64,000 nucleotides of DNA from an uncultured Omnitrophica bacterium (GTDB lineage: Bacteria > Omnitrophota > Gorgyraeia > JACQQV01): the NCBI GenBank assembly GCA_947085655.1, contig CAMTXH010000010.1, positions 82,015 through 146,014 on the forward strand. Direction: 5' to 3'. Shown here piece by piece: positions 35,435 to 59,386 of this stretch (position 1 is the first letter of the stretch; each line of letters begins with the position of its first letter). The notes below the pieces were generated by a model that did no database searches, was not told the DNA's origin, and was given only the letters and a program-made list of their open reading frames with translations. The position numbers and the translations under genes were made by a program.

Positions 35435-36469
35435 TTAGATCCGGCCTATGTACTCAAAAATCGGATCATGCGGCATCTTTTCCGAAAAGAAAAGCCAGCG
35501 TCTCGGGTACGAATTGGGCCTCGTAAAAGCAGGGGAGATTCTGAAGTGGAGTCTCTTCTCCGGGTCCCAAACGGGATAATCCAATAGGGTAATGTCCGAA
35601 TCATAAAGCTGGGACGACTGGACGCGATTCACGGTGAAGAAGAACCTCGCCGTCTTAAAGACGGGGGACTCCATGTAATATTCGAACCACTGCCGCTTCA
35701 TCTCTCCGAAGGAGGTAAAATTCGTCACAAGATCCGACGATTCCCGGCCCAACCGGTCATAACAGGGAATCGGGACAAGGATAAAATCGTACTGCCGAAT
35801 GAAATCTCTTGTGATTTCCTTTTGGTCCAAAAATTCTTTGACCCCCGCGATCCGCGCTTCGGGAAGATAACTTCCCAGAAAGTAGTAGGCCAGAATCAAC
35901 TGCGCCGAGAAATCCACAAGGATGTGATGGGATTGGGGCCATTCCTGCTTGACCAGCCCTGAGAAAACGCCGTAACTGCTCCCGATATCCAGAGTGATAA
36001 AATCATCTGCAAGATGTTTTCCGAGTATTTCCTTGAGAAGACCGGTGAGATAGACATGTTTGAACCACCGGTGGGTGTAGCGATAACCTTGATATTGAAA
36101 GACGCTGGGATTCCCGACGTCGGGGCAAGGGTGTCTTTTTAAAAGGTCGGTATATTTTGCCTCTTCAAGGACCTTAAAACACTCAATCAGATGCCTCCGG
36201 TCGCCGCGTCTGCCGCCGCCCAAAAAATTCCTCGGGTCCAAGGCATGCATGTCATAATTAGGCGTATCCGGCACAAAGATATGCAGCCGCCTGAAATTGG
36301 AAAGGGCCTCTTTGTTCAGCAACCCATCCCGGTGGATGAGGCGATCCGGTTCGCTCTCCAGGCGCTCGCGCCATGTCTCACAAAGGTCTTCCCCGTAGCG
36401 GGCTGCGCCATCCAACGCCCGGTGGCTTTCCAGCTCGGCCTGAATCTGATTGAGGAGGTCGTTTTTCAT
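35435..36469 (-). CDS. methyltransferase-fold protein (possible divergent CmoB-like/FkbM-like transferase), translationally coupled to cmoA-like gene
   Basis: ATGA overlap with cmoA-like stop at 36466-36469; ITLDIGSSYGVF resembles SAM motif I (CmoB ILDVGCGSGY) at equivalent position; otherwise no canonical CmoB blocks. Confidence 0.4.
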   Translation of the reverse strand: MKNDLLNQIQAELESHRALDGAARYGEDLCETWRERLESEPDRLIHRDGLLNKEALSNFRRLHIFVPDTPNYDMHALDPRNFLGGGRRGDRRHLIECFKVLEEAKYTDLLKRHPCPDVGNPSVFQYQGYRYTHRWFKHVYLTGLLKEILGKHLADDFITLDIGSSYGVFSGLVKQEWPQSHHILVDFSAQLILAYYFLGSYLPEARIAGVKEFLDQKEITRDFIRQYDFILVPIPCYDRLGRESSDLVTNFTSFGEMKRQWFEYYMESPVFKTARFFFTVNRVQSSQLYDSDITLLDYPVWDPEKRLHFRISPAFTRPNSYPRRWLFFSEKMPHDPIFEYIGRI

Positions 36470-37239: not shown

Positions 37240-37240
37240 C

Positions 37241-38548
37241 TCATCTCTCCTTTGCATTATGAACCGTTAAACTCTGGATCAGCGCAGTGACCCGCTCATG
37301 TGTTTTACCATCCAAATAGTGGCAGATCCGTTCCTTTAAGGCAGCCCTCTCTTGGCGCTCCAAAGAGGGGTCTTTGAGATACTCATTCACCCTCTGGATC
37401 AACTCAAATTCATCCCTCGCGATCCGGCTCGCCCCTGTCTCGCGGACAGGACGAAAGTGGTACTCCCAGTGTCTTTTGAGAATGTGTGTTTTGAAGGCCC
37501 CCGCATTTTGGGGATCGAAGGCGACATTGACAACGGGCGTGTCCAAAAGGGCTGCCTCGATCGTCACCGTTGAAGCAACGTTGACGAGGACATCGCTGTG
37601 TTTGATCAGATTGGCGACGTGCCTCGATTCCGCCAGGTCAGGATCCCAACCAAGTGTTGGTGAAATACGGCCCTTCAGATCGAGGGTCACATCGGGACAC
37701 GCCGGTAACTCCCACTTCGTCTCCTTCTGGAACATGATCGGATGGAACCGGCAAACCAGTTGCGACGGTTCGGCCAGTTTACCCTCACGCATCGCCCGGC
37801 GCAGGTGTTCGACCACATGAAGGCAATCTCCGCGCAGATTGCGCAGATAATACCCTGCAATCGTAATGAGTTTCTTCCGGGGATCCAATCCAAGCCGCTT
37901 AAAGAAGGCGTCTCTCGACTCAAATGTCTGTTCCTCGTAATAATGGTCAAACTGGAGGGGGCCGACGACCCATATCCGATTTTCCGGAAAGTGCCAAGTC
38001 CGAACGACTTCCTCTTTCATTAATGGATTCCAGACGGCCAGATAACCGGGTCTTACCCGCAGGGTGTCTTTGATCGGACTGAAGTTGTCCCAACTGTGCA
38101 CGACACAGAGCACCGGTATCTTCCAATTCCTTGCCTCCCGGATCAGGGGGAGATCCTGTGTTGTGTGGAGCCCGCATCCCGCCGTAACGAGCAGGGCGGG
38201 TTGATGCTTTTGAAACATTTCCCCATATTGTATCGGCTCCGAACGCGTCGCCAGCCAATGGTGCATCTTCATCGCCAAAAGGTAAGGCGTACGGGAGCCC
38301 CTGAGTCTCCTCCCGCATTTCCATAAAAGAGCCCTGCAGAATCCCTCCTCTTTGTCGGCAGCACCCATCGGCTCAAACAGGACCTGTCCATTTAAGGCGA
38401 ATTCCTTAACGAAAGAAGGGTCACGAGCGGCCGTCGAGACGATAACCGCTCGCATGTCCCGCCTGGATAAAATCCCTGCCAAGAGGCGGCTCCGTAACAG
38501 GGATCTTGCGTAACGTCCGATCGGAATCGAAAAGAAAATGGTCTTCAT
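37241..38548 (-). CDS. GT-B fold transferase, possibly CDP-alcohol/glycerophosphotransferase (TagB/TagF Glyphos_transf-like) or capsule phosphotransferase
   Basis: FHP...then LIKHSDVLVNVASTVTIEAALLDTPVVNV pattern resembling TagF HP ... SDxLITDYSS...KPII; low certainty. Confidence 0.35.
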   Translation of the reverse strand: MKTIFFSIPIGRYARSLLRSRLLAGILSRRDMRAVIVSTAARDPSFVKEFALNGQVLFEPMGAADKEEGFCRALLWKCGRRLRGSRTPYLLAMKMHHWLATRSEPIQYGEMFQKHQPALLVTAGCGLHTTQDLPLIREARNWKIPVLCVVHSWDNFSPIKDTLRVRPGYLAVWNPLMKEEVVRTWHFPENRIWVVGPLQFDHYYEEQTFESRDAFFKRLGLDPRKKLITIAGYYLRNLRGDCLHVVEHLRRAMREGKLAEPSQLVCRFHPIMFQKETKWELPACPDVTLDLKGRISPTLGWDPDLAESRHVANLIKHSDVLVNVASTVTIEAALLDTPVVNVAFDPQNAGAFKTHILKRHWEYHFRPVRETGASRIARDEFELIQRVNEYLKDPSLERQERAALKERICHYLDGKTHERVTALIQSLTVHNAKER

Positions 38549-46545: not shown

Positions 46546-48019
46546 CCCAATAAAAGGGCTTCAAATCTAAACCTCTGTTCTTCTCGGGGGCTTCAACCGT
46601 TTCAACCACCTGTAATCCCAGGTGTTCAAGAACCGGTTTCAGCGATTGCGGCGTCCAGTAGGAAAAATGCCGCCAGCCCGGTTTCCCCTTGGGGTGAAAA
46701 ACCCCGTGTCTTTGTCCCTCCCAAAAGGAGCGCGAGGAAGTCGCGGGATTTTCGTCGTCTGTCTCTGTAAGGTCCAATCTTTCTCTTTCCAGAAGTTCCT
46801 TGAGAGTCGTCTCAGCAGCACGGTTATCTGTTGGGATTGGGACGTAGCGCTTATCCGGAACAATCAGAAAGAGGACTCCCCCCGGTCTCATCACCCGTTT
46901 CCATTCCTTCAGCGCTTTCAGGGGATTGATCAAGTGTTCCAAGAGGTGCGAAGTGATTACGAAATCGCGGCTTTCGTCTTTTAGAAAAGAGAGGTCATAG
47001 GCAGAAGCAATCACATCCGGTTTCGGATAGACTCTCTCCTTAAAATCGGTGTAGAGATCAACGGAGACGGCATTGATATTCGGAAAACGATTGGATCCTG
47101 CGCCGATTTCAACGCCGCGTCCGATACAGTACCGATAGGCAAGTTTCAGGTCAGCCCGTTTCCGCTGGGTCCACCCGCTCACTCTCACTTTCTTGAATCC
47201 CAACTGAATCAGTTTCCCCGACATTCTGGATTTCAGTTTTGGGATAATTCCACGGCTGAGGACCGCCCGCGGCGGACGCTCTTTCCGGTCAAAATAAAAT
47301 CCTCCTCCATTTACTTCATAATTCTTGCCGTCTTGGAAGTGATAAGCGAAACTCTCCATCACCCGTTTGTATTCCAAGCCCCTCTTCCACAGGATCCGCC
47401 GGAAAAGAGTGTCGTTCGGATAGGGAAACGGCCTCCGGTCAGGCCAGCGGCCGAGGGCATTGAATAATGTTTTATGGATCACCGTCGGAACAAAGAAACC
47501 GTCAATGGCCAACCGCTCTTCAGCATGACGTTTCACAAAATCAATAAAACCTGCCTCTTCGAATTCATCTGCCCTCAGCCCAAAATTCCTAATGAGGTTC
47601 GCGTGGTAAGGTCGGATGATCCCCGGCTCAACTGTCTGCGCCGTCAGAACATTCTTTGGCGTGAGATACTTTACGATAGCCCTGTCCCAATCGGGGGCAA
47701 AATAGATGTCCTGTGTGGTAAAACATAAGATGCCCTTCGAGGCAAGCCGGGCACCCCGATTCCAACTCCCGTACGGGCCCAAATTTTTCGGATTTTTAAA
47801 GACACGCACATGTGAATGACGCGACAGGATGTCGATATCCTGCTGGGTGTAAGAGGCGCTATGCCGGTCCGGATCGACGAGTGCAATGATTTCATGAGGG
47901 AGGCGGCTATTTTTTTGAAGACTGCCAATACAGACCTCCAATTCAGCCCCGCCCTTAAAAACAGGGATGATGATCGAAAATGAGTTATCCAACTTTTTCC
48001 CCAAGACCTTGAATCGCAA
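46502..48019 (-). CDS. bifunctional GT2 glycosyltransferase / SAM-dependent methyltransferase fusion
   Basis: N-term SIIIPVFKGGAELEVC GT2 start; C-term LEHLINPLKALKEWKRVMRPGGVLFLIVPD methyltransferase motif II/III region. Confidence 0.6.
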   Translation of the reverse strand: MRFKVLGKKLDNSFSIIIPVFKGGAELEVCIGSLQKNSRLPHEIIALVDPDRHSASYTQQDIDILSRHSHVRVFKNPKNLGPYGSWNRGARLASKGILCFTTQDIYFAPDWDRAIVKYLTPKNVLTAQTVEPGIIRPYHANLIRNFGLRADEFEEAGFIDFVKRHAEERLAIDGFFVPTVIHKTLFNALGRWPDRRPFPYPNDTLFRRILWKRGLEYKRVMESFAYHFQDGKNYEVNGGGFYFDRKERPPRAVLSRGIIPKLKSRMSGKLIQLGFKKVRVSGWTQRKRADLKLAYRYCIGRGVEIGAGSNRFPNINAVSVDLYTDFKERVYPKPDVIASAYDLSFLKDESRDFVITSHLLEHLINPLKALKEWKRVMRPGGVLFLIVPDKRYVPIPTDNRAAETTLKELLERERLDLTETDDENPATSSRSFWEGQRHGVFHPKGKPGWRHFSYWTPQSLKPVLEHLGLQVVETVEAPEKNRGLDLKPFYWDDFTIVARKVGNER

Positions 48020-49583
48020 GGCGCTGTTTGAACAGAGTCAATGCGATCTGGACCTCTTCAAGGCGAAGCTGCCGGAGCGTCACAACGAAAACAAGAAAGC
48101 CGGTACCCCCAATCACCGCCAACTCAAACAGAGACATCTTCAGTCCTTTTTCAGGCCCCAAATACCGGAGTATTTCCTTCATTCCGAAGAGGGTGGCACC
48201 GCATGCAAGCGCCGCAGCCGACAGTTTCATGTAAAAGGAACTGACAAATATTTTGGCCGTCTCCGGCATTGCCCTTGAAAGAGCCGCCCAGTAGACCATG
48301 GCGATGGTTAGTGTCATGAGCGAAGAAGAGAGGGCAACACCCAAATAGCCGAGGGGGCCGATCAGAAGCAAAATGAAAAAGAGATGGATCACTTCCCCCA
48401 AGATTTGAATGCCGGCGACCTGAAAGGGCCTCTTCAGTGCGTAGAGCCCCCGTCTAAAGATGCCCACCGCGCCTTCCGCCATCAATCCCAATGCATAACA
48501 GGCAAGGGCATTCGCAAGCAGGACCGTGTCCGACGACTGGAATCGTCCCCTCTCAAAAATGATTGCAGTAATGGGCGTCCGGAGAAGAACTAAAAAGAGT
48601 GTCATAGGAAGGCAAATCAGGAAAATGACACGGAGGACCTTCCCCATGACCACCCTCAGCTGATCAAGTTTCTGTATAGCGGCAGCGGCTAGACTCGGAT
48701 AGACTACCGTCTGCACAGGGACAATGCTCAAGCCGCACAATTTGGCATAAATGTTGGAAGTATATTGCAAAATCGCCAGACTCCCCTGCGGGAGAAAAGA
48801 AATTAAGGCGGTCATGGCAACAATCTTCGCCTGAACCGCTACTTTACTCACAACAAAAGGGCTGACAGACTTGATGGTTTCCCGCACTGCAGGATTTTTC
48901 CAGTCAAAAGAGAACGTGTAACGGAAGCCGTTTCCAAGGAGAGCACCCAATAGAAAAAGAAAGCGGGTCAGGGCGCCTGTCATGAGGGCGACGGGAAGAC
49001 TCCAGAGGCCGATGGAGGGGGCCAAAAGAGAGAGAGCCAATAGCCCCAAACCGGGCGAGAGGACCGAATCCGTCACCTCCACCCACACAAACCTCCGCAG
49101 GGCGTGGAGAACGGCGGTTACGAAATTGCCGAGAACCACAAGGGTCAGCATCGGAAGGAGAAAACGGGTCATGGAGATGATCGTTCCTCTGGCCGATGCT
49201 TCAAAACCGGGCACGACGAACGGGATGATCCAGGGGGCAAGATAAAAGACAATCCCTCCGATCAGCAGGGTGAGGCCTGCAAGCACATTAAAGAGATTGG
49301 ATGTAATGATCCACGCCTCTTTGTAATCTTTTTTCGCCCACCGCTCCGTAAAGATCGGAAGAAAAACCGTGGCAACTGTCCCTCCCAGAAAAAACTTGTT
49401 GGTCGTCGTGAAAAGGACAGATGCCGCGAAAAAGATATCCATTTCCCTTCCGGCACCAAAGAAAAAGGCATAAAGGGCCATTTGAACAAATGAGAGAACA
49501 AGACCTATCGCACGGAGGGCGCTGATCCAGCCGACCGAGCGGGCCGCCCTCTCGTAAACGCCCAGCTGCTCAGGTTCACCCAT
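47985..49583 (-). CDS. MurJ/MviN-family (MOP superfamily) lipid-linked oligosaccharide flippase
   Basis: ORF 47985..49664 trimmed to MGEPEQ...; FFGAGREMDIFFAASVLFTT resembles MurJ N-terminal signature; 14 hydrophobic segments. Confidence 0.65.
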   Translation of the reverse strand: MGEPEQLGVYERAARSVGWISALRAIGLVLSFVQMALYAFFFGAGREMDIFFAASVLFTTTNKFFLGGTVATVFLPIFTERWAKKDYKEAWIITSNLFNVLAGLTLLIGGIVFYLAPWIIPFVVPGFEASARGTIISMTRFLLPMLTLVVLGNFVTAVLHALRRFVWVEVTDSVLSPGLGLLALSLLAPSIGLWSLPVALMTGALTRFLFLLGALLGNGFRYTFSFDWKNPAVRETIKSVSPFVVSKVAVQAKIVAMTALISFLPQGSLAILQYTSNIYAKLCGLSIVPVQTVVYPSLAAAAIQKLDQLRVVMGKVLRVIFLICLPMTLFLVLLRTPITAIIFERGRFQSSDTVLLANALACYALGLMAEGAVGIFRRGLYALKRPFQVAGIQILGEVIHLFFILLLIGPLGYLGVALSSSLMTLTIAMVYWAALSRAMPETAKIFVSSFYMKLSAAALACGATLFGMKEILRYLGPEKGLKMSLFELAVIGGTGFLVFVVTLRQLRLEEVQIALTLFKQRLAIQGLGEKVG

Positions 49584-50763
49584 GAAGGACTCGTTCAAAA
49601 AGACCCTCCTCCCACTCTGGGGTGGGTGTCCTACCTTCTCGAAGCGTTGACACAAGCGTCTCAAAACGCCGTCTTGAATTTTCGTAGGAGAAAGATTCGA
49701 CTTTCTCCATCGCCTTTCTTTGGATCTCCCGATAGAATAAAGGGTCGGCCATCAGTTGTTCCGCCAGCGCTATCCCCTTCCGGACACCCTCAATATCTGA
49801 GACGGCAAGATCCGGAAAGCATTCCGATTGTCCGTTCGAATTGCAGCCGATGCACGGGGTGCCGACCGCGGCTGCGTCCAGAGCAACCCTCCCATTGGTC
49901 CACCAGATGTCCGTGTTCAAAATCATGAATGCCTTGGCGGTTTCCTGAAGGTAGGGCTGCCAGGCGGTCCTGGGAAGGACTTCGTAGTGTGTCCCCCGCA
50001 GGGGTTCGAGATTCATATCCCCCCAATCCGTCAATCGAATCAGAAATTCAGGATGGCGTCTCTGCAGTTCCCGGGCTACGAGGAGACTCGCCATGATATC
50101 CAGTCGGTCTGTCTTTCCGGCAATGTAGAGGATTTTCTCTTTTCCTTCCAGAGGTCTGTAGAATGATTTGGCGAATTCGGTTGGATAGAAAGGCGGAGCA
50201 TAGGCAATCGGTTTTTCGGACACCAACTGCAGATAACCGAGTGCGGCGCGGTTCACAATCAGGAAAAGATCCGACGCATTCACAAATTCCGCAAAAGAAC
50301 GGTACCAACCGGGATCCCTCCACCATTCCCGAACGCGGCCCAAATTGTAGGTTCCGTGTGTTCCCAAGAAAAGGACCTCCGGCGTCGCAGATTTGGCCTC
50401 TTTGAGAAATTGTAGAAGGTCGTCATGACGCTCAAGAAAATGACAGACCAAAATCACGTCGAAGCGCTTGACATAGGAGAGGTTTTTAAATCGCAAAGGG
50501 CGTTTGAGCCGGCGCCGCATAGAAAATTTTATTCGATCCGGAAAAGAAACCGGCTCATGGACACCGGGCCTTTCTTTCCCGTCCTCAAACCAGTGAAGCG
50601 GAATATGCTCTCCGTTTAGGGCACTGGTCCAGCAGCCGAAGGAATTGACGTCGATTTCCCGGCGCTGATCGCAGAAGTAATTCGGCCTTTCCGGCGTCGG
50701 TCTCCAGATGCCGCCCGATTTTGTATTCCATTCCACGCAGGCAAATCTCACCATGCCGTCCAA
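49576..50763 (-). CDS. hypothetical protein with GT-B-like C-terminal half, candidate glycosyltransferase of the nonulosonate module
   Basis: C-terminal AVGTPCIGCNSNGQSECFPDL...ALAEQLMADP resembles GT-B donor-binding domain; no firm family assignment. Confidence 0.3.
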   Translation of the reverse strand: MDGMVRFACVEWNTKSGGIWRPTPERPNYFCDQRREIDVNSFGCWTSALNGEHIPLHWFEDGKERPGVHEPVSFPDRIKFSMRRRLKRPLRFKNLSYVKRFDVILVCHFLERHDDLLQFLKEAKSATPEVLFLGTHGTYNLGRVREWWRDPGWYRSFAEFVNASDLFLIVNRAALGYLQLVSEKPIAYAPPFYPTEFAKSFYRPLEGKEKILYIAGKTDRLDIMASLLVARELQRRHPEFLIRLTDWGDMNLEPLRGTHYEVLPRTAWQPYLQETAKAFMILNTDIWWTNGRVALDAAAVGTPCIGCNSNGQSECFPDLAVSDIEGVRKGIALAEQLMADPLFYREIQRKAMEKVESFSYENSRRRFETLVSTLREGRTPTPEWEEGLFERVLHG

Positions 50764-51590
50764 CCCCCGTCCACCACGAGATTCGCCCCTGTCATATACG
50801 AAGAGGCATCCGAAGCGAGGAAAAGGATTGCTCCTTTGTATTCGTCCCGATCCGCCATCCGGCCGAGGGGAACACGCCAGGAATAATTTTTGACAAAGGT
50901 CTCATCATGGCCGTCGTAGACACCCCCCGGCGAAAGAGAATTGACCCGAATTTTTTTCTCCGCCCAATAGGTGGCCAGGTACCGGGTAAAATTGATCACA
51001 CCCGCTTTTGTCGTTGAATAGGAAACCGGCATGTTGAAGGGCTTGCCGCTGTAAGGGCTCTTGACTCCCTCATAGATCCGGTGGTCAGGACCGACCATTC
51101 CCGCCATGGAGGCGATGTTGATGATGACACCACCCCCCTGTTTGACCATGACTTTTCCGACGGCCTGGGTGCATAAAAACATCCCGGTCAGATTGACTCC
51201 CAACGCTTCCTCCCAAAGTTCCAGCGGGTAATTCTCGAATTCGGAAAAATAGCCGTTGAGCTCCTCGCTTCCTTTCTTGACCGTCAAGGCCGCATTGTTG
51301 ATGAGGACATCGATGCGCGGAAATTTTTCCAGAATTTCCTTGACCATGGCCGTGACGTCCGCTTTTTTTGTGATGTCCGCCCGGATTCCGAGTGTCTTCA
51401 CGTTGAAGGCCCGGCCGATCTCGTCGGTTGCTTGATCAAGACGCTTCCGGTCAAGGTCCACCAATACCGGCTGGCCTCCTGCTTCCGCAATCGCCTCCGC
51501 ATGCATCCTCCCGAGCATGCCGGCCCCGCCGGTAATAACCGCGGTCCTCCCTGTCAGGTCAAACGCCTTCTTGACAGATTTTGTCTTCAT
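50748..51590 (-). CDS. classical short-chain dehydrogenase/reductase (SDR)
   Basis: TAVITGGAGMLG cofactor motif, YSTTKAG (YxxxK) catalytic motif. Confidence 0.8.
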   Translation of the reverse strand: MKTKSVKKAFDLTGRTAVITGGAGMLGRMHAEAIAEAGGQPVLVDLDRKRLDQATDEIGRAFNVKTLGIRADITKKADVTAMVKEILEKFPRIDVLINNAALTVKKGSEELNGYFSEFENYPLELWEEALGVNLTGMFLCTQAVGKVMVKQGGGVIINIASMAGMVGPDHRIYEGVKSPYSGKPFNMPVSYSTTKAGVINFTRYLATYWAEKKIRVNSLSPGGVYDGHDETFVKNYSWRVPLGRMADRDEYKGAILFLASDASSYMTGANLVVDGGWTAW

Positions 51591-52620
51591 AGAGTGAAAT
51601 CACCTCTCCGGTCTCAAGGGATTGCTTCGCGGCAAGGGCGATTCTTAGGCTGTCGGCGCCTTCCCGAAGCGAAACGAGCGGCGTTTCTTCGCCCCGGACA
51701 GATGCCAAAAAATGCCTCATTTCGTCCAGGAAAAGTTGGTTTCTCTCAAATCCCTCCAGACGGCGTGTCTCCGGCTCCTCTTTGCCTCCCTGCCACACGG
51801 TCAATGTCCCGCCGTGATGATCCCAAATGATCTTTCCCGAATCCCCGATGATTTCGCAGCGCCGGCTCGGCGGCCTCTGGAGATAATCCTGGAGAATGTG
51901 AACCGGCAGGATATTTCCGTTCCACCGACATTCCATCAGAATGCTCGCGGTATCTTCTACATCGAGTTCTAAACGGCTCAACTTTCCTCCGAGGGCAAAC
52001 AGACGCTGGGGCATCCCGAAAAGAGAATAGGCATAATCGAACTCGTGGATTTGGGAAAGAATCACGCCGCCGCCCAGATTTTTTCTTGAAGCATACATCT
52101 TCCGGTAATCTTCGTACGGATGCCATCCGGGGAGGTACTCGCCCACCTCCAGACGGACGGATAAGAGCTTACCGATCGCCTCTTCCTTGAGGAGATTCCG
52201 GATCCAGCCGAGACAGGGATGGAACCGAAGTTGAAACCCGACCATGGCGGTAAGCCCCTTTTTCTCGACGATGGAGATCAATTCGTCCACACCCTCCAGA
52301 GAATCGGATAACGGTTTTTCGATAAAAAGGTGGCACCCGGCCTTTGCCGCCTCAAGGGCCGCGGGGATGTGGAGACTGCTCGGGTTGGTGATGAATGCCA
52401 CCTCCGGCTTTTCTGCCAGCGCTTTGTCCAGTTCACCAAAAACATGGATGTTGTACTTCTCTTCGATGGAAGCACCCGGCTCAACAGTCAAAGTCGGAGT
52501 CATCACTGTCTGCAGGCGGCGGACGCGGTAGGCCAAAATCTCCGTTTCCGGAACCAGGGTCTTGAGGTTCCTCAAGTGGCGCTGCCCGATTCCGCCCAGT
52601 CCGATGAAGAGTGCCTTCAT
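51559..52620 (-). CDS. Gfo/Idh/MocA-family oxidoreductase
   Basis: MKALFIGLGGIGQRHLRNL Rossmann start, EKPL motif (FIEKPLSDS). Confidence 0.75.
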   Translation of the reverse strand: MKALFIGLGGIGQRHLRNLKTLVPETEILAYRVRRLQTVMTPTLTVEPGASIEEKYNIHVFGELDKALAEKPEVAFITNPSSLHIPAALEAAKAGCHLFIEKPLSDSLEGVDELISIVEKKGLTAMVGFQLRFHPCLGWIRNLLKEEAIGKLLSVRLEVGEYLPGWHPYEDYRKMYASRKNLGGGVILSQIHEFDYAYSLFGMPQRLFALGGKLSRLELDVEDTASILMECRWNGNILPVHILQDYLQRPPSRRCEIIGDSGKIIWDHHGGTLTVWQGGKEEPETRRLEGFERNQLFLDEMRHFLASVRGEETPLVSLREGADSLRIALAAKQSLETGEVISLYEDKICQEGV

Positions 52621-53381
52621 GCGGGGTGTCTCCGCTCCCCTGTCGACACTGAAAGCGTTTCTTTGGCATTCATCGAGGCCAACAACTTTTCTGCCTCCTG
52701 AAAACTCTCTTCATAATCAATTTCGATGTAGGGCTCCTGGATGACAAAAGGCAGGATTTTTCGCCCCGACATCGCCCCCTCCAGGATGACCCGGGGCCGC
52801 AGAATATCAACGTAACCGTTCTGCCAATAGACTTCCGGAAGGAGTTGCCGCGGCATGTTGTAAGGTTCCTCCATTCCCGGCACCGTCACCAGCGGTTCCA
52901 AATAACCCTCTGGATTCATGCGCCACATCTTATAAGGGGTTTGGGACGGCCAGAGGACTGATTTGAGGGAATCCGCCTCCGGATGCACCATCAGGGTGCG
53001 GATCGCGGCTTCAACCGTCTCCACACGCCGGATCGGTCCCGTCGGACGCAGATCGACGATCAGTTCAGGAGTATAGTCTTCGTTTTCCTTCAGCCACTTG
53101 AGCGCATGCTGAAACACGGGAAGGTCAGGACTTAAATCCTGGGCCAGTTCCGGAGGCCGCATAAACGGCACCTCCGCCCCGAATTTCCTGGCAATCTCGG
53201 CAATTTCCCGATCCTCCGTGGAAACAATGACCCGTTGAATGAGATCGGATTGCCGGGCGCACGCAATGGTATAGGCAATCAGGGGCTTCCCGGCAAGCGG
53301 CCGAATGTTTTTCCGGGGAATGCTCTTGGACCCTCCCCGGGCCGGAATCAGGCATAGAATTTCAGGGATTTTGTTCCGCAT
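52617..53381 (-). CDS. CMP-nonulosonate/ulosonate cytidylyltransferase (NeuA/CTP_transf_3 family)
   Basis: LCLIPARGGSKSIPRKNIRPLAGKPLIAYTI signature of acylneuraminate cytidylyltransferases. Confidence 0.75.
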   Translation of the reverse strand: MRNKIPEILCLIPARGGSKSIPRKNIRPLAGKPLIAYTIACARQSDLIQRVIVSTEDREIAEIARKFGAEVPFMRPPELAQDLSPDLPVFQHALKWLKENEDYTPELIVDLRPTGPIRRVETVEAAIRTLMVHPEADSLKSVLWPSQTPYKMWRMNPEGYLEPLVTVPGMEEPYNMPRQLLPEVYWQNGYVDILRPRVILEGAMSGRKILPFVIQEPYIEIDYEESFQEAEKLLASMNAKETLSVSTGERRHPA

Positions 53382-54213
53382 ACTTACAGGATTCCTGCAA
53401 ATGGCGTTTCACAAATTCAAGATAGCGCCTCGCCGTTTCTTCTTCAATGCCGTCCCGGGCACCCTGCAGGATGTAAGGACCTTCGAAGCCCGCCGCCTGC
53501 AAGGCCTGAAATGTCCCCGTAAAATCGACATCGCCGGTCCCGAGCGGCACCGTGGAGCCCCCCCGTTTTCTGTCTTTGACATGAACACCGGAAATCCAAG
53601 TCCCGAGTTTTGGGATTTCCGTCTCCGGACGATGTCCCGTCGCGACACGGTTTCCGATATCATAATAAATGCGGATCAGCGGATGATCGAACGCCTCCAT
53701 CAACGCCTCATACGACTCGACCGGCAGATTGGATTCGATGGCAAGTTCAATGCCATGCGTCTCTGCAATCGGCAACACGGCGCGCAGGCATTGGATCAGC
53801 TGGCGCTGGTCGGTTTCTGTTTGAATTTCGACCTCCTCCAAAACAGGCAGAAGGACCCTCCGGATGCCCAAACGCGCCCCCTGTTCAATCAGGTGCCTGA
53901 GCGTTTGAATAGAATTTGACTGCGCCTCGGGTGAAGTCCGGAAGAAAGGGTATCGCATGAAGTAATCAGCGCAGATCGAAGGGACTGCAACCCCGTGGAC
54001 CTCAGAGACAGTCCGAATCCGTTTGATTCCCTCCCTTGTCCAAAGCGGGTTCTTCCGATGGCCGTCGGCTTCAAAAACCCATTCCAAAGCATCAAACCCG
54101 CACCGCCTTGCTTTCGGAAACTCCTCCTCCCATGTCTCTACCGGAAACGCCTGCAATCTTCCCTTGAGAGGAGGAGAAAGTCTCCCTTGAAGGATCCCGA
54201 TGACGTTCTTCAC
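53362..54213 (-). CDS. sugar phosphate isomerase/epimerase (xylose isomerase-like TIM barrel, AP_endonuc_2 family)
   Basis: 283 aa alternating beta/alpha pattern, FDALEW, HGVAVPSICADYF, His/Glu/Asp-rich metal-site-like segments; family call tentative. Confidence 0.5.
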   Translation of the reverse strand: MKNVIGILQGRLSPPLKGRLQAFPVETWEEEFPKARRCGFDALEWVFEADGHRKNPLWTREGIKRIRTVSEVHGVAVPSICADYFMRYPFFRTSPEAQSNSIQTLRHLIEQGARLGIRRVLLPVLEEVEIQTETDQRQLIQCLRAVLPIAETHGIELAIESNLPVESYEALMEAFDHPLIRIYYDIGNRVATGHRPETEIPKLGTWISGVHVKDRKRGGSTVPLGTGDVDFTGTFQALQAAGFEGPYILQGARDGIEEETARRYLEFVKRHLQESCKYAEQNP

Positions 54214-54752
54214 GAATGAATCCGGGTCATCCTGGAGGGTTCTGTCGGTTTTTCTGCCTCCAATGTCCTTAAAACCATGCCGCAGACCTCTCGGACAGCT
54301 CCTTGGCCTCCTTTTTCACTCAGAACGATCTTGGCCTTCGAGATCACAGAGGGATCCGCGTCCTTCACCGCGATACCCAATCCCGCCCAGGCCATACACG
54401 CCAGATCATTCTCGTCGTTTCCCACATAAACCACATCTTCCGGACGGAGTCCTTGGGCAGTCGCCAAAGATTTCAGTTGCACCAACTTGTCCGGAAGTCC
54501 CTGATAACAGGGTAACCCCAATTTTCTGCACCTCGCCGAAACAACGGGGTTCCCTTCCGTCGAGAGGACTGCCATCGGAATGCCTTGTTCCTTCAGCCGG
54601 GCAATTCCCAATCCGTCCCCTCGATGGCAAAAAACGGATTCCGTCCCATCCTGGTGGACCAGAACGCGGTTATCCGTCAATACACCGTCGAAGTCAAACA
54701 CAACAAGCTTGGGGATTCTCGGGAGGATTCCCTTTTTGACAGGCATCGTCAC
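54210..54752 (-). CDS. HAD-superfamily phosphatase, KdsC/YrbI subfamily (ulosonate-phosphate phosphatase)
   Basis: KLVVFDFDGVLTDN motif I, YVGNDENDL motif IV. Confidence 0.7.
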   Translation of the reverse strand: MTMPVKKGILPRIPKLVVFDFDGVLTDNRVLVHQDGTESVFCHRGDGLGIARLKEQGIPMAVLSTEGNPVVSARCRKLGLPCYQGLPDKLVQLKSLATAQGLRPEDVVYVGNDENDLACMAWAGLGIAVKDADPSVISKAKIVLSEKGGQGAVREVCGMVLRTLEAEKPTEPSRMTRIHS

Positions 54753-55618
54753 ACCCGGCGTAATTTTGCCAGAATCGGCTTCTCGCTTTCATACACCTCT
54801 TTCACACCGTTGCCGATCGCCTTCTCAATCAGGCGGATGTCTTTCACCAGGTGCCTGAATCCTTGGGGTTCGACCGAAGCAGCTTGGTCGCTGCCCCACA
54901 TGCTGCGATCCAGGGTAATATGACGCTCAACCACGCAGGCGCCAAGGGTTACGGCAGCCACTGTGGAGGCCAGACCCACTTCATGCCCGGAGTATCCGAC
55001 CGGGCAGTCGAAACTCCTTTGCAGCGTCTGAATCATCCGGAGGTTTAACTCTTCCGGTTGGGAAGGGTAGGTGCTGGTGCAATGCAACAGGATGAGATCC
55101 TCAGGACCAAGAATTTCCACCGCATGAATAATCTGCTCCATGGTGCTCATCCCGGTGGAAAGGATAATCGGTTTTCCTTTGGTTCTTTGGTAACGGAGGA
55201 GGTTATCGTCGGTCAGGGAAGCGGAGGCGATTTTGTAACAAGGGGCGTTAAATTGTGCGATAAAATCAACGCTTTCTTCGTCCCAACAGGAAGCAAACCA
55301 GAGAATCCCCTTCTGCTTGGCATAGCGATCGATCTCGCAATATTCCTTAAAACCGAACTCGAGCCCCCTTTTTAAATCGCCATTGGTCGGGCCAAACGGG
55401 TTTTCCCGGGGGCGTGCGAGTTCTTCGGGGGAGTAGACCACCTCCACCGCCCGTTTCTGGAATTTTACCGCATCCGCCCCTGCCTCCTTGGCCGCATCCA
55501 TCAGGGACTTTGCAAGCGCAAGATCCCCGTTGTGATTGATGCCGATCTCGGCTACGATAAATGCGGGATGCCCTTCTCCGATCAGACGATCCCCGATGCG
55601 TACCTCCCTTGCGCTCAT
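54749..55618 (-). CDS. NeuB-family PEP-condensing nonulosonate/ulosonate-phosphate synthase lacking C-terminal SAF domain
   Basis: IVAEIGINHNGDLALAKSLMDAAKEAGADAVKFQKR N-terminal signature of NeuB/PseI/LegI; 289 aa ends before antifreeze-like domain. Confidence 0.7.
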   Translation of the reverse strand: MSAREVRIGDRLIGEGHPAFIVAEIGINHNGDLALAKSLMDAAKEAGADAVKFQKRAVEVVYSPEELARPRENPFGPTNGDLKRGLEFGFKEYCEIDRYAKQKGILWFASCWDEESVDFIAQFNAPCYKIASASLTDDNLLRYQRTKGKPIILSTGMSTMEQIIHAVEILGPEDLILLHCTSTYPSQPEELNLRMIQTLQRSFDCPVGYSGHEVGLASTVAAVTLGACVVERHITLDRSMWGSDQAASVEPQGFRHLVKDIRLIEKAIGNGVKEVYESEKPILAKLRRV

Positions 55619-59300: not shown

Positions 59301-59386
59301 ATTTCTCCCAAAAGAAGGACTCCTATACTGAAAACGATTCCCAGACACCGTCTTGCAACAGCACTTTTCTGATTCCGGGCACTCAT
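56342..59386 (-). CDS. outer-membrane polysaccharide export protein (OPX/Wza family) with N-terminal 27-residue tandem repeats and multiple SLBB domains
   Basis: signal peptide MSARNQKSAVARRCLGIVFSIGVLLLG; Poly_export signature PVASDYVLGPEDTIVVSMWG near aa 333; repeated ...GD.L.I. SLBB-like units to aa 1014. Confidence 0.75.
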   Translation of the reverse strand: MSARNQKSAVARRCLGIVFSIGVLLLGEIGVSLEAQEGLLPKLPQQRVTDALGRRALEDVEFTTVTCPRDGRMFEIEVDKSEEAFRAGNMRVTCPYDGYEFYTPMPGFKQKAEKGVYDVRCPVDGKIFKAELEIGALLSGEGGQILRCPYDGTEFRLSVNQLTMDELRENFSMTTFRSPTDGRFFKAMVDPLEQMKLFSPFTGEAFESAAENIVRQAGIPQGPRGEEALLGGARAPETRPLELSRIEMMFSEEISLGIPRNIRQFGYDIFPESQKLTSPFLRQEGALGRGSSFSNVFSQLTGSLLGGEMGKQVPQSSFDSLDTFSAGASSVPVASDYVLGPEDTIVVSMWGAMQGTFPVTVDRDGKILLPKVGPVYVWGLTFGEAEELLKKSLTEHYSNVNLSITMGRLRTIRIFVLGEVKRPGAYLLNPQSTAFHALYAAGGPTKLGTLRGIKLLREGHEESTFDLYKLLLKGEKEGDIPLEANDTILVPPIGEVIGIAGSVKRPAIYEVTSSIHLDELVEMAGGPTAIGYLQRIQIERVQDRERKVVLDLEFKGSRELARLGDEVRLWDGDLVLISPISPGRHQYISLAGNVVRPGDYELKGQMRILDLIEKGGGLRKGTYFDRADVSRFQADNMRRIIRVNLGDAIRGEPSQNILLEEWDIVRIYSRSDVVMTPFVEIHGAVRQEGKYELTDQMRLSDLLFRAGGFKPTAALENAELFRLKPGETSLTMIPLDVRGILEGTAAEKDLYLSEGDRLFIHQSHLDRQPATVTLSGEFLYPGEYVIRQGERLSSVIQRAGGFTDQAFLKGTVFTRESLRKEEKERAKLFLESEQLALLQEVASLGAGFDPGQKQSRMDLAQYHERLMEQIKNKEYLGRMIVKLAEPDQLEGTPDDFVLEDGDSLKVPPVPSSVLVVGNVYNPTAVSFAEGKNVEFYLRKAGDLTKGADEKRIYLVKANGEAYSQFIRLKKVERGDTIVVPEAFRYKSARFNFVKETADFFFKVAFGAIAIAAVD

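What the first reader, a model, noticed from the sequence alone, without database searches (positions are those of the whole stretch)
49576..55618. Neu/Kdn-like CMP-ulosonate module with atypical redox and isomerase partners
Seven consecutive genes make up this block. They are a NeuB-family synthase without SAF domain (54749..55618), a KdsC/YrbI-type HAD phosphatase (54210..54752) and a TIM-barrel sugar-phosphate isomerase/epimerase (53362..54213). These are followed by a NeuA-type cytidylyltransferase (52617..53381), a Gfo/Idh/MocA oxidoreductase (51559..52620), an SDR (50748..51590) and a GT-B-like protein (49576..50763). The synthase + phosphatase + cytidylyltransferase combination is the logic of the Kdn/Neu5Ac phosphate-dependent pathway. 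It is not the ManNAc-direct bacterial NeuB route. The two oxidoreductases and the isomerase are not part of any textbook nonulosonate pathway. They suggest a modified or non-standard ulosonic acid.
Basis: partly seen in the sequence, partly recalled or inferred. Interest (0 to 1): 0.6.

Follow-up and report, generated by a model that had tools for sequence, protein, structure and literature searches.

The report
Tailored CMP-ulosonic acid sugar operon
Six adjacent genes in a very large surface-polysaccharide operon form a widespread but uncharacterised pathway that probably builds a modified sialic-acid-like sugar acid through a phosphorylated intermediate and activates it with CMP; the exact sugar is unknown.

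Summary
The seven ORFs are real, co-directional and tightly packed, and each has the stated domain. The 289-aa NeuB homologue has no SAF domain. It keeps all catalytic and metal residues and shares a KFQKR/long-loop signature and an E134S change with the characterised Prymnesium Kdn-9-P synthase. Its YrbI-type phosphatase has the Glu/Arg/Lys residues of Bacteroides Kdn-9-P phosphatase. A genuine KdsB/KdsC/WaaA-like set lies 20 kb away in the same window, so this is not housekeeping Kdo.

Across 61 species-level genomes the short NeuB and phosphatase recur as a pair. The pair feeds either a NeuA-type cytidylyltransferase (23 loci) or a ThDP enzyme (28 loci), never both. The TIM barrel, the classical SDR, and either a Gfo/Idh/MocA enzyme or two further SDRs travel together as an optional trio. 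The trio occurs in both contexts, so it most likely works on the sugar acid or its phosphate, not on the CMP-sugar. Gene fusions link the parts (NeuB-SAF-TIM, TIM-HAD, CTP-HAD, HAD-GmhA).

A GmhA-like isomerase sits in many related loci. This leaves open a ten-carbon product made from heptose-7-phosphate.

The GT-B protein is GT4-like and is not part of the conserved core.

The product is undetermined.

The parts
54749..55618 (-). Short (SAF-less) NeuB-family PEP:aldose-phosphate condensing enzyme ('NeuBs')
   Evidence: PF03102 scores 273 bits with no SAF domain. It is below the NeuB and PseI equivalog cut-offs. Catalytic and metal residues are conserved. It shares KFQKR, the long beta2-alpha2 loop and E134S with the P. 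parvum Kdn-9-P synthase, to which it is 36% identical. An NJ tree places it next to that enzyme. Homologues are 65-81% identical in at least 478 species-level genomes.
54210..54752 (-). YrbI/KdsC-type HAD phosphatase of the Kdn-9-P-phosphatase-like lineage
   Evidence: TIGR01670 scores 102.5, just under the cut-off of 106.95. It is 34% identical to BT1713 and keeps Glu56/Arg64/Lys67. The window's KdsC paralogue has Arg at position 56. The best PDB match is the Streptomyces avermitilis protein 3MMZ at 143.8 bits. The HAD motifs DFDGVLTD and GNDENDL are present.
53362..54213 (-). UlaE-like AP_endonuc_2 TIM-barrel metalloenzyme; probable enediolate-forming isomerase or eliminase
   Evidence: PF01261 scores 106 bits. 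The L-ribulose-5-P 3-epimerase models score 84-90 bits against cut-offs of 200-317. The only good PDB match is UlaE at 75 bits. The Glu, Asp and His metal ligands are invariant, but the fourth ligand is Gln in 118 of 120 relatives. A TIM-HAD fusion exists (P0160).
52617..53381 (-). NeuA-type CMP-ulosonate synthetase (cytidylyltransferase)
   Evidence: CTP_transf_3 domain. PseF TIGR03584 scores 140.6 against a cut-off of 205.7. The best PDB matches are CMP-Neu5Ac synthetases 6IFD (113 bits) and 1EYR; KdsB structures score 34 bits. The PARGGSKSIPRKN motif is present. In variant loci this enzyme is fused to the HAD.
51559..52620 (-). Gfo/Idh/MocA NAD(P) oxidoreductase (probable secondary-alcohol dehydrogenase step)
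   Evidence: PF01408, PF02894 and PF22725 all hit. The iolG model scores 118 bits, far below its cut-off. PDB neighbours include inositol dehydrogenases and the sialic-acid oxidoreductases YjhC and RgNanOx at 54-58 bits. It is found only together with the SDRc gene (18 of 18 loci) and is mutually exclusive with two alternative SDRs.
50748..51590 (-). Classical SDR ('SDRc'), probable keto-reductase acting on a sugar acid or sugar acid phosphate
   Evidence: adh_short scores 151 bits. The closest NCBIfam models are gluconate 5-dehydrogenase (206 bits) and PRK09186 (oxidoreductase; 192 bits), both below cut-off; the named PtmA model NF050062 scores 137. The TGxxxGxG, NNAA and YxxxK motifs are present. 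It is present in 24 of 24 loci that have the TIM barrel.
49576..50763 (-). GT-B (GT4-like) glycosyltransferase; adjacent to the module but not part of its conserved core
   Evidence: The AlphaFold2 model has pLDDT 92. Foldseek matches TreT, BshA, MshA and glycogen synthase at E about 1e-10. The family is small (57 proteins) with no Pfam model. Among the related loci it is shared only with L003. A 41%-identical homologue lies in another NeuB/CTP locus, L087.
37241..38548 (-). TagB/BFO_1060-like transferase in the same operon; best candidate for the CMP-ulosonate transferase
   Evidence: PF04464 scores 38 bits. NF046086 (BFO_1060 family) scores 75.8, below its cut-off of 200. That family contains the Tannerella Pse/Leg transferases (PMC5420450). 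Proteins 26-30% identical to this one sit beside the module in 14 other loci.
35435..36469 (-). NanM-type sugar O-methyltransferase (operon context; possible tailoring of the ulosonate)
   Evidence: TIGR04371 scores 93.8 bits against a cut-off of 44.

Best explanation
Genes 50748-55618 form a self-contained sub-pathway inside a surface-glycan operon of about 62 kb. The sub-pathway makes a CMP-activated, tailored 3-deoxy-2-ulosonic acid by the phosphate-dependent route.

Proposed steps:
1. The SAF-less NeuB condenses PEP with a manno-type aldose phosphate to give an ulosonate omega-phosphate. Chain length is unresolved. My estimates are Man-6-P giving Kdn-9-P about 50%, D-glycero-D-manno-heptose-7-P giving a C10 acid about 30%, and something else about 20%.
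2. The Gfo/Idh/MocA enzyme oxidises a secondary hydroxyl.
3. The UlaE-like TIM-barrel metalloenzyme makes an enediolate next to the new ketone. With only one catalytic Glu it would isomerise or eliminate rather than epimerise by a two-base mechanism.
4. The classical SDR reduces the ketone. The net result is an epimeric or deoxy sugar acid.
5. The YrbI-type phosphatase removes the terminal phosphate.
6. The NeuA-type enzyme makes the CMP-sugar.
7. A TagB/BFO_1060-like transferase elsewhere in the operon probably adds the sugar to the polymer.

Shown by the data: the domain identities, the conserved catalytic residues, the conserved synteny, the fusions, and the separateness from the Kdo genes.

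Inferred: the substrate, the order of steps 2-5, the chemistry of the trio, and the transferase.
For: - Domains and catalytic motifs are established.
- NeuBs resembles the characterised Kdn-9-P synthase in lacking SAF and in having KFQKR, the long loop and E134S. It groups with that enzyme in an NJ tree.
- The HAD is present in 56 of 61 loci. It has the BT1713-like Glu56/Arg64/Lys67 residues and is often fused to the CTP transferase.
- The CTP enzyme is NeuA-like, not KdsB-like. A true KdsB and KdsC lie elsewhere in the window.
- The six genes recur in Omnitrophota, Chloroflexia, Anaerolineae, Polyangia and Acidobacteriota.
- TIM implies SDRc in 24 of 24 loci. SDRc is accompanied by GFO or by two other SDRs in 26 of 28 loci.
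- The trio also occurs in ThDP-type loci that have no cytidylyltransferase: L030, L034, L046, L061, L064. This places the trio before CMP activation.
- The SDR is a classical SDR whose nearest models act on sugar acids. The TIM barrel's only close structure acts on a ketose phosphate.
- Fusions exist between NeuB-SAF and TIM, TIM and HAD, and HAD and a GmhA-like domain.
- NeuBs from loci with and without the trio are 65-72% identical and interleave in the tree. This suggests a common substrate, with the trio acting afterwards.
- The genes overlap stop to start, and no convincing terminator lies within the block.
Against: - There is no biochemical data for any member of this NeuBs clade, and none was found in the literature that could be searched.
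- Every protein scores below the curated cut-off of every NCBIfam equivalog.
- NeuBs is about equally distant from Kdn-9-P synthase (36% identity) and from the Leptospira short NeuB 6NCS, PseI and NeuB (131-160 bits). Substrate therefore cannot be transferred by homology.
- By analogy with PtmA/PtmF, which are assigned to the sugar-phosphate segment of the Leg pathway (PMC4481668), and with UlaE and GmhA, which act on ketose phosphates, the trio could act before the condensation step instead.
- HAD subtypes do not track the presence of the trio cleanly.
- The co-occurrence statistics are not corrected for phylogeny or for horizontal transfer.
Confidence: 0.6

Rival explanations
1. The module and its end product are the same, but the TIM/GFO/SDR trio acts upstream. 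It converts a common sugar phosphate (sedoheptulose-7-P, fructose-6-P or a hexose-6-P) into a rare aldose phosphate, which NeuBs then condenses with PEP.
For: - The TIM barrel's only close structural relative, UlaE, acts on a ketose phosphate.
- A GmhA-like ketose-phosphate isomerase is embedded in or fused to the module in many loci.
- The PtmA/PtmF pair of Leg clusters is assigned to the sugar-phosphate building-block segment (PMC4481668).
- The TIM-HAD fusion is compatible with phosphorylated substrates.
Against: - NeuBs occurs with the HAD alone, or with HAD plus SIS, in most ThDP-type loci and in nine loci with neither partner. Yet it stays 65-72% identical to, and interleaved in the tree with, NeuBs from loci that have the trio. 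This would be unexpected if the trio defined its substrate.
- The second catalytic Glu of 3-epimerases is Gln in this family.
Confidence: 0.25
2. The block makes ordinary CMP-Kdn, or CMP-Neu5Ac by an animal-like or Leptospira-like route. The TIM/GFO/SDR genes serve a different sugar of the same polysaccharide and merely share the operon.
For: - NeuBs, the HAD and the CTP enzyme alone are sufficient for CMP-Kdn in Bacteroides and Prymnesium (PMC6200933).
- The operon carries many other sugar-modifying genes.
Against: - The trio follows NeuBs across phyla and into ThDP-type loci. TIM and GFO are found near NeuBs only together with SDRc.
- The TIM gene lies between the HAD and the CTP genes in the window.
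- NeuB-SAF-TIM and TIM-HAD fusions exist.
- For Neu5Ac, the 64-kb window has no UDP-GlcNAc 2-epimerase, kinase or aminotransferase.
Confidence: 0.07
3. It is a legionaminic/pseudaminic-type diamino nonulosonate pathway of the PtmA/PtmF/LegF kind.
For: - The gene order CTP-GFO-SDR resembles PtmA-LegF-PtmF in Plesiomonas, Vibrio and Campylobacter (PMC4481668).
- The SDR's nearest NCBIfam models include the named PtmA model NF050062 at 137 bits, below its cut-off.
Against: - Neither the module nor the window contains a 4,6-dehydratase, aminotransferase, N-acetyltransferase or hydrolysing 2-epimerase set.
- NeuBs lacks SAF and is paired with a phosphatase.
- The LegI/PseI/NeuB equivalog cut-offs are not met, and PtmA NF050062 scores 137 against a cut-off of 350.
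Confidence: 0.03
4. It is a duplicate or replacement of the housekeeping Kdo pathway, with NeuBs acting as a KdsA analogue on arabinose-5-P.
For: - The HAD is of the YrbI/KdsC type.
- No KdsA gene is present in the 64-kb window.
- Some Gastranaerophilales loci carry only NeuBs and the HAD.
Against: - KdsB and KdsC pass their curated cut-offs 20 kb away, next to a WaaA-like gene.
- The module's CTP enzyme is NeuA-like: KdsB structures score 34 bits against 113 for CMP-Neu5Ac synthetase.
- The module's HAD has Glu, not Arg, at position 56.
Confidence: 0.02

Closest known systems
CMP-Kdn pathway of Bacteroides thetaiotaomicron (BT1714 synthase, BT1713 phosphatase, BT1715 synthetase) and Prymnesium parvum
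   Same: The logic is the same: a SAF-less NeuB-family synthase acting on a sugar phosphate, then a YrbI-type C0 HAD phosphatase, then a NeuA-type CMP-synthetase. NeuBs shares KFQKR, the long loop and E134S with the P. parvum enzyme. The HAD shares Glu56/Arg64/Lys67 with BT1713.
   Different: NeuBs is only 36% identical to the synthase, and the HAD only 34% identical to BT1713. NeuBs forms its own tight clade. It is obligately accompanied in most CMP-type loci by a TIM barrel and two or three oxidoreductases, and often by a GmhA-like isomerase. None of these is part of the Kdn pathway.
Animal-type and proposed Leptospira-type Neu5Ac-9-P route (NANS/NANP; L. interrogans NeuB with a C-terminal 'endonuclease-like' domain, PMC3438082)
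   Same: The condensation step is phosphate-dependent. A NeuB is physically linked to an AP_endonuc_2-type domain: the Leptospira fusion and the Chloroflexia NeuB-SAF-TIM fusion.
   Different: The window has no ManNAc-6-P supply genes. The TIM barrel coexists with a dedicated HAD phosphatase and is sometimes fused to it, so it is unlikely to be the phosphatase that the Leptospira authors proposed.
Kdo pathway (KdsD, KdsA, KdsC, KdsB)
   Same: Both use a PEP plus aldose-phosphate condensation, a YrbI-type phosphatase and CMP activation. An SIS-type isomerase supplies the aldose phosphate in related loci.
   Different: The synthase belongs to a different family (NeuB, not DAHP_synth_1). The CTP enzyme is NeuA-like. 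The isomerase is GmhA-like, not KdsD-like. The real KdsB and KdsC are separate genes in the same window.
PtmA (SDR) / PtmF (oxidoreductase) / LegF trio of legionaminic acid clusters
   Same: A classical SDR and a second oxidoreductase flank a CMP-nonulosonate synthetase. The window's SDR scores against the PtmA model NF050062 (137 bits) and against the oxidoreductase model PRK09186 (192 bits).
   Different: Both models score below cut-off (137 against 350, and 192 against 255). The rest of the Leg pathway is absent. PtmF could not be compared because no sequence was available.
ThDP-dependent acyl-branched sugar pathways (yersiniose, erwiniose, caryophyllose, gastriose; PMC9306805)
   Same: About half of the related loci pair NeuBs and the HAD with a ThDP enzyme and with genes of the CDP-3,6-dideoxy-4-ketohexose type. 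This fits a polyhydroxy alpha-keto acid donor.
   Different: The known systems use pyruvate aldolases to make the keto acid, not a NeuB/phosphatase pair. The window itself has no ThDP enzyme and has a cytidylyltransferase instead.
Gfo/Idh/MocA dehydrogenase plus AP_endonuc_2 TIM-barrel pairs (IolG with IolE/IolI; glycoside 3-dehydrogenase with a TIM-barrel lyase). Own knowledge, not tested here.
   Same: This is a working analogy for the trio: oxidise a secondary alcohol, perform metal-stabilised enediolate chemistry next to the ketone, then reduce.
   Different: The resemblance is at family level only: iolG scores 118 bits against a cut-off of 355, and iolE scores 29.7.

Membership tests
NeuB family (PF03102) PEP-condensing synthases | NeuB TIM-barrel domain with catalytic Glu25, Lys53, Gln55, Lys129, Tyr186, Glu234 and metal ligands His215, His236 (N. 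meningitidis numbering) | tested here: met
   PF03102 scores 273 bits. All listed residues are conserved in the window protein and in 82-83 of 83 clade members.
N-acetylneuraminate synthase NeuB / pseudaminate synthase PseI (equivalogs) | Score above the curated cut-off, and a C-terminal SAF domain that supplies Arg314 to the N-acetyl pocket | tested here: not met
   TIGR03569 scores 264 against a cut-off of 399.65. TIGR03586 scores 228 against 340.25. There is no SAF domain; the protein ends at residue 289. Glu134 is replaced by Ser.
Kdn-9-phosphate synthase (B. thetaiotaomicron / P. parvum type) | SAF-less architecture with the KFQK(R/S) motif, an extended beta2-alpha2 loop and Ser at position 134 | tested here: met
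   Alignment with the P. parvum enzyme, whose sequence was taken from the supplement of PMC6200933.
Kdn-9-phosphate synthase (B. thetaiotaomicron / P. parvum type) | Specific use of mannose-6-phosphate | not testable with these tools
   Identity is only 36%. GmhA-like genes in related loci raise heptose-7-P as an alternative substrate.
KdsA (Kdo-8-P synthase, PF00793) | DAHP_synth_1 domain | tested here: not met
   There is only a marginal 17-18 bit similarity to DAHP synthase models.
KdsC Kdo-8-P phosphatase | Score above the curated cut-off; Arg at BT1713 position 56 as in E. coli KdsC (sequence recalled from memory) | tested here: not met
   NF007019 scores 115 against a cut-off of 208. TIGR01670 scores 102.5 against 106.95. 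Position 56 is Glu. The window's other HAD (32786-33340) passes TIGR01670 at 143.5 and has Arg at position 56.
Kdn-9-P phosphatase lineage (BT1713-like) | A Glu/Lys pair plus the conserved carboxylate-binding Arg, and frequent fusion to the cytidylyltransferase. These criteria are recalled from Lu et al. 2009 and Daughtry et al. 2013; the papers were not retrievable here. | tested here: met
   Glu56, Arg64 and Lys67 are present in the window HAD and in all HADs of the CMP-type loci. CTP-HAD fusions occur in L083, L086, L005 and others. However, NF058599 scores 82.8 against a cut-off of 180, so this is not an equivalog.
L-ribulose-5-P / L-xylulose-5-P 3-epimerase (UlaE/SgbU) | Score above the curated cut-off, and four metal ligands Glu-Asp-His-Glu in which both Glu residues act as opposite-face acid/base (mechanism from own knowledge) | tested here: not met
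   NF009688 scores 90 against a cut-off of 317, and TIGR00542 scores 76 against 272. Glu, Asp and His are conserved, but the fourth ligand is Gln in the window protein and in 118 of 120 relatives.
CMP-nonulosonate synthetases (NeuA/PseF/LegF; CTP_transf_3) | CTP_transf_3 domain with the PARxxSKxxxxKN loop, and closer to NeuA than to KdsB | tested here: met
   PF02348 hits. 6IFD scores 113 bits against 34 for KdsB structures. PseF TIGR03584 scores 140.6 against a cut-off of 205.7, so this is not a PseF equivalog.
PtmA flagellin-modification SDR | Score above the curated cut-off of NF050062 (FlagModPtmA); PRK09186 (labelled 'oxidoreductase') noted for comparison | tested here: not met
   The scores are 137 against a cut-off of 350, and 192 against 255.
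GT-B fold glycosyltransferases (for 49576-50763) | Two Rossmann-like domains that match solved GT-B enzymes | tested here: met
   The model has pLDDT 92 and pTM 0.90. Foldseek matches TreT, BshA, MshA and glycogen synthase at E 1e-10 to 1e-8 with TM about 0.6. None of the 50 matches listed is a sialyl- or Kdo-transferase.

The most novel reading that the evidence does not exclude
The short NeuB clade condenses PEP with D-glycero-D-manno-heptose-7-phosphate. The substrate would come from a module-encoded or module-fused GmhA-like isomerase, or from the LPS heptose pathway where one exists. The product would be a ten-carbon 3-deoxy-2-ulosonic acid. The TIM/GFO/SDR trio would then epimerise or deoxygenate it. 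It would finally be either CMP-activated, as in this window, or decarboxylatively grafted onto a 4-keto sugar by a ThDP enzyme. If correct, this is a widespread and undescribed family of higher-carbon sugar acids in environmental bacteria.
Probability: 0.3. Interest if true: 0.85.

Novelty: new variant of a known kind. Interest (0 to 1): 0.6.

Why it matters
Surveys of environmental bacteria keep finding ulosonic acids and CMP-sugars that cannot be assigned to known pathways. One 2026 preprint (SugarBase) reports CMP-linked backbones longer than nine carbons.

This module is conserved at 65-81% identity for its synthase across more than ten phyla. It offers a concrete, clonable six-enzyme candidate for one such sugar.

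The analysis also shows that a NeuB/phosphatase pair is a portable source of polyhydroxy alpha-keto acids with two alternative fates, CMP activation or ThDP-dependent branching. This links two areas of bacterial glycobiology that have been studied separately.

If the substrate proves to be a heptose phosphate, the known sialic-acid-like family would extend to ten carbons. The pathway would then supply enzymes for making such sugars.

Tried and rejected
- **Housekeeping Kdo.** Rejected. A true KdsB and KdsC and a WaaA-like gene are separate genes at 32786-35419.
- **Classical Neu5Ac, Leg or Pse pathway.** Rejected. There is no SAF domain, no NeuC, and no dehydratase/aminotransferase/acetyltransferase set. 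The equivalog cut-offs are missed.
- **TIM barrel as the phosphatase** (the Leptospira paper's reading). Unlikely. A dedicated HAD is always present and is even fused to the TIM barrel (P0160).
- **TIM barrel as a true 3-epimerase.** Doubtful because of the Glu-to-Gln change.
- **GT-B protein as the ulosonate transferase.** Not favoured. It is GT4-like and poorly conserved with the module, although a homologue does sit in another NeuB/CTP locus (L087).
- **Substrate-specificity papers for KDN9PP/KDO8PP and the B. thetaiotaomicron Kdn paper.** Not retrievable. Those criteria rest on memory.
- **Literature searches** for the module, for C10 ulosonic acids and for the Streptomyces teichulosonic acid genes. 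They gave no characterised homologue.
- **Plasmid-collection hits** (Methylomagnum, Nonomuraea, Hymenobacter, Streptomyces). They showed other contexts but no annotated CMP-type module.
- **BT1714, SCO4881, human NANS, LegI and PtmF.** No sequences were obtainable, so they are missing from the tree.
- **Promoter and terminator scans.** Counts were at chance level.

Full report
**Observation**

The window is almost entirely one minus-strand gene array running from about 62 kb to 0.1 kb. Pfam and NCBIfam give the following:
- 54749-55618: NeuB domain only, 273 bits, no SAF domain.
- 54210-54752: YrbI/KdsC-type HAD.
- 53362-54213: AP_endonuc_2 (xylose-isomerase-like) TIM barrel.
- 52617-53381: CTP_transf_3.
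- 51559-52620: Gfo/Idh/MocA.
- 50748-51590: classical SDR.
- 49576-50763: nothing significant.

An AlphaFold2 model of the last protein, built on 33 homologues, has pLDDT 92. It matches GT4-type GT-B glycosyltransferases, so the 'GT-B-like' call is correct.

The source is contig CAYJWX010000003.1 of MAG GCA_964374045.1. Its public gene calls agree with the ORFs. The nearest relatives are Omnitrophota MAGs.

**Not housekeeping, not classical**

None of the six biosynthetic proteins reaches the curated cut-off of any NCBIfam equivalog. The same operon carries three separate genes:
- a bona fide KdsB at 33303-34073 (TIGR00466 scores 184 against a cut-off of 155);
- a KdsC-subfamily HAD at 32786-33340 (143.5 against 106.95);
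- a WaaA-like Kdo transferase at 34070-35419.

The module's cytidylyltransferase is closest to CMP-Neu5Ac synthetases (6IFD, 113 bits). It is far from KdsB structures (34 bits). No aminotransferase, UDP-GlcNAc 2-epimerase, kinase, KdsA or SIS gene is present in the 64 kb. Together these exclude a Kdo duplicate and a Neu5Ac/Leg/Pse pathway.

**The synthase**

The 289-aa NeuB homologue keeps every catalytic and metal-binding residue of N. meningitidis NeuB except Glu134, which is Ser. I translated the P. parvum Kdn-9-phosphate synthase from the supplement of PMC6200933.
- It too lacks SAF and is 36% identical over its full length.
- It shares the KFQKR motif, the extended beta2-alpha2 loop and Ser134.
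- These features are absent from NeuB, PseI, SpsE and the Leptospira short NeuB 6NCS.

PMC8208679 cites the alpha2-beta2 loop as favouring phosphorylated substrates in the human enzyme. A neighbour-joining tree places the window protein's clade beside the Kdn-9-P synthase and away from the SAF-bearing enzymes. That tree has no bootstrap values and a limited set of references. The clade is unusually conserved: more than 65% identity across Omnitrophota, Chloroflexota, Acidobacteriota, Planctomycetota, Verrucomicrobiota, Myxococcota, Gemmatimonadota, Melainabacteria, CPR and others. It occurs in at least 478 of the species-level genomes scanned.

**The phosphatase**

The HAD is 34% identical to the characterised Kdn-9-P phosphatase BT1713. 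It has that enzyme's Glu56, Arg64 and Lys67. The window's KdsC paralogue and E. coli KdsC have Arg at position 56 (the E. coli sequence is recalled from memory). From memory of Lu et al. 2009 and Daughtry et al. 2013, a Glu/Lys pair and frequent fusion to the cytidylyltransferase mark the KDN9PP lineage. I could not retrieve those papers. Such CTP-HAD fusions occur in variant loci. The closest solved structure is 3MMZ, which I recall (not shown by the tool output) to be from Streptomyces avermitilis, a genus that makes Kdn-containing teichulosonic acid; it scores 143.8 bits.

**Comparative genomics**

I fetched 80 species-level loci with the short NeuB and several metagenomic ones. I scored their neighbourhoods with the window proteins and with variant proteins. 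Among the 61 loci with at least 4 kb on both sides:
- The HAD is present in 56.
- A NeuA-type cytidylyltransferase is present in 23 and a 600-aa ThDP enzyme in 28. No locus has both (Fisher p = 3e-9; not corrected for phylogeny).
- The TIM barrel is present in 24 loci, always with the orthologue of the window SDR ('SDRc').
- SDRc is accompanied either by the Gfo/Idh/MocA enzyme (18 loci) or by two further SDRs (9 loci). These two options never occur together.
- The trio is found in 18 of 23 CMP-type loci.
- The trio is also found in ThDP-type loci that have no cytidylyltransferase: L030, L034, L046, L061, L064.

The full six-gene set of the window recurs in Omnitrophota (L003, 62-81% identity per protein), Chloroflexia, Anaerolineae, Polyangia and Acidobacteriota.

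Gene fusions tie the parts together:
- NeuB-SAF-AP_endonuc_2 in Chloroflexia. This matches the 'endonuclease-like' C-terminus reported for a Leptospira NeuB in PMC3438082.
- TIM-HAD (P0160).
- CTP-HAD.
- HAD fused to a GmhA-like SIS domain.

**What the trio probably does**

Three observations place the trio on the sugar acid, its phosphate or its precursor, not on the CMP-sugar.
- It travels with NeuBs and the HAD whether or not a cytidylyltransferase is present.
- The SDR is a classical SDR whose nearest models are gluconate-5-, mannonate- and KDG-type dehydrogenases.
- The TIM barrel's only close structure, UlaE, binds a ketose phosphate.

NeuBs from loci with and without the trio are nearly the same protein and interleave in the tree. 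On that basis I favour action after condensation, at roughly 60:25 over precursor synthesis.

The TIM family keeps the Glu, Asp and His metal ligands of UlaE. The fourth ligand, which I recall to be the second acid/base of 3-epimerases, is Gln in 118 of 120 members. This argues for a one-base enediolate reaction (isomerisation or beta-elimination) rather than a two-base epimerisation. By analogy with known Gfo/Idh/MocA plus TIM-barrel pairs (own knowledge), the likely sequence is oxidation, enediolate chemistry, then reduction. The result would be an epimeric or deoxy acid.

**Chain length**

A GmhA-like SIS gene lies within 8 kb of NeuBs in 25 of 61 loci and in 16 of 23 CMP-type loci. It is embedded between SDRc and the next gene in all Chloroflexia loci, lies immediately downstream of NeuBs in two CPR loci, and is fused to the module HAD in seven loci.
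- These proteins score 180-198 bits on TIGR00441, against a cut-off of 209.
- In the 22 higher-scoring proteins of the set (all the module-embedded and HAD-fused ones plus three from ThDP-type loci) they keep His61, Glu65, Gln172 and His180 of GmhA (reference sequence and residue numbers from memory).
- In the four loci checked (L004, L012, L020, L038), no heptose kinase or heptose nucleotidyltransferase accompanies them.

Lineages that carry the SIS gene inside the module are ones not expected to make LPS heptose. The window has no SIS gene, but a GT9 heptosyltransferase-family gene lies just beyond its low-coordinate end, so a housekeeping GmhA is likely in this organism. This pattern fits D-glycero-D-manno-heptose-7-P as the substrate, which would give a C10 product. 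A GmhA-like enzyme could instead make Man-6-P from Fru-6-P, and the Kdn-like features of the synthase and phosphatase favour C9. I leave this open, with C9 at about 50% and C10 at about 30%.

**Downstream use**

The GT4-like GT-B protein is shared only with the closest relative. It belongs to a 57-member family with no Pfam model. One homologue sits in another NeuB/CTP locus (L087). A better candidate for the CMP-ulosonate transferase is 37241-38548, a TagB/PF04464-like protein with partial similarity to the BFO_1060 family. That family includes the Tannerella Pse/Leg transferases (PMC5420450). Proteins 26-30% identical to it flank the module in 14 other loci. Next to it is a NanM-type sugar O-methyltransferase, TIGR04371, above its cut-off.

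The surroundings identify the product's destination as an exported surface polysaccharide or LPS-like polymer. They include:
- Wza-, Wzi- and chain-length-determinant-like genes;
- two flippase-type genes and a Wzy_C gene;
- many GT2, GT4 and PMT_2 genes;
- several methyltransferases, two radical-SAM enzymes and two AsnB-like amidotransferases.

Promoter and terminator scans are at chance level. The only plausible promoter-like site lies in the divergent gap at about 62.15 kb.

**Comparison with what is known, and verdict**

The module works like the Bacteroides/Prymnesium CMP-Kdn pathway, but it is not a member of any curated family. It carries extra enzymes that I could not find characterised anywhere in the searchable literature. 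The SDR/oxidoreductase/CMP-synthetase arrangement has a partial precedent in PtmA/PtmF/LegF of legionaminic acid clusters (PMC4481668).

I rate it a new variant of a known kind.
- the conserved core is six genes;
- the trio acts before CMP activation;
- the NeuB/phosphatase pair has dual use;
- the product may have ten carbons.

The product's identity needs biochemistry.

Noticed in passing
Loci L016, L017, L019, L022, L026, L036, L037, L039-L041, L046, L056, L069, L073, L075, L079-L081 (short NeuB at about 10000 in each): In about half of the related genomes the same short NeuB and a small HAD sit next to a 600-aa ThDP enzyme. These loci also carry a Glc-1-P nucleotidyltransferase, a 4,6-dehydratase-like epimerase, a 450-aa DegT (the size of E1/ColD-type 3-dehydratases), FkbM methyltransferases and a GT2. 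They have no cytidylyltransferase. This looks like an acyl-branched sugar pathway (the scheme of PMC9306805) in which NeuB and the phosphatase replace the pyruvate aldolase as supplier of the alpha-keto acid donor.
   Followed up: partly
window 32786-35419 (-): A bona fide KdsB (33303-34073), a KdsC-subfamily HAD (32786-33340) and a WaaA-like Kdo transferase (34070-35419) are embedded in the same giant operon. The 64-kb window has no KdsA or KdsD.
   Followed up: partly
L004 12640-13815; L038 14355-15533; also L008, L047, L053, L027, L042: The module's KdsC-like HAD is fused to a GmhA-like sedoheptulose-7-P isomerase domain (TIGR00441 scores 180-198 bits against a cut-off of 209). Standalone GmhA-like genes lie inside the module in all Chloroflexia loci and directly after NeuBs in two CPR loci.
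   Followed up: yes
L007 18825-20759; similar in L015 and L020: These are 630-655-aa NeuB-SAF-AP_endonuc_2 fusion proteins, third NeuB paralogues in Chloroflexia loci. The Chloroflexia loci with standalone SIS genes also hold a second short NeuB paralogue and two cytidylyltransferases. These organisms may therefore make more than one ulosonate.
   Followed up: partly
L004 11688-12692; L083 4282-5400: A sulfotransferase gene lies inside or beside the short-NeuB module. This hints at sulfated ulosonate-containing glycans.
   Followed up: no
window 56342-59386 (-), N-terminal ~200 residues: The 1014-aa Wza-like exporter (Poly_export plus SLBB domains) has an N-terminal extension with at least five repeats of a CP.DG..F motif (for example VTCPRDGRMF, VTCPYDGYEF, VRCPVDGKIF, LRCPYDGTEF, FRSPTDGRFF). 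Its function is unknown.
   Followed up: no
window 39413-40915 (-) and 9496-10542 (-); methyltransferases at 46502-48019, 40896-41819, 36466-37257, 35435-36469, 30623-31573, 20301-20963: The glycan operon contains a B12-binding radical-SAM enzyme, a SPASM radical-SAM enzyme and at least six SAM methyltransferase genes or domains, one of them fused to a GT2. This suggests a heavily methylated, possibly C-methylated, polysaccharide.
   Followed up: no
L089 (Methylomagnum ishizawai plasmid pRS11DPr1), 4901-13572: A 58%-identical short NeuB and a HAD-IIIA lie with a split transketolase-like ThDP enzyme, a class-III aminotransferase, an SDR, LplT, a GNAT N-acyltransferase and a lysophospholipid acyltransferase. 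This is a third, lipid-like context for the NeuB/phosphatase pair.
   Followed up: no
window 53362-54213 (-) and 118 of 120 homologues (P0121-P0240): The UlaE-like TIM-barrel family has an invariant Glu-Asp-His metal site. The fourth ligand, which is the second catalytic Glu in UlaE, is replaced by Gln. I know of no characterised AP_endonuc_2 enzyme with this pattern.
   Followed up: partly
L093 20476-21002 (just beyond the low-coordinate end of the window on the source contig): The operon continues past the window with dTDP-sugar genes, several epimerases, a UDP-glucose dehydrogenase and a Glyco_transf_9 (heptosyltransferase-family) gene. This implies an ADP-heptose pathway, and therefore a GmhA, in this organism.
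   Followed up: no
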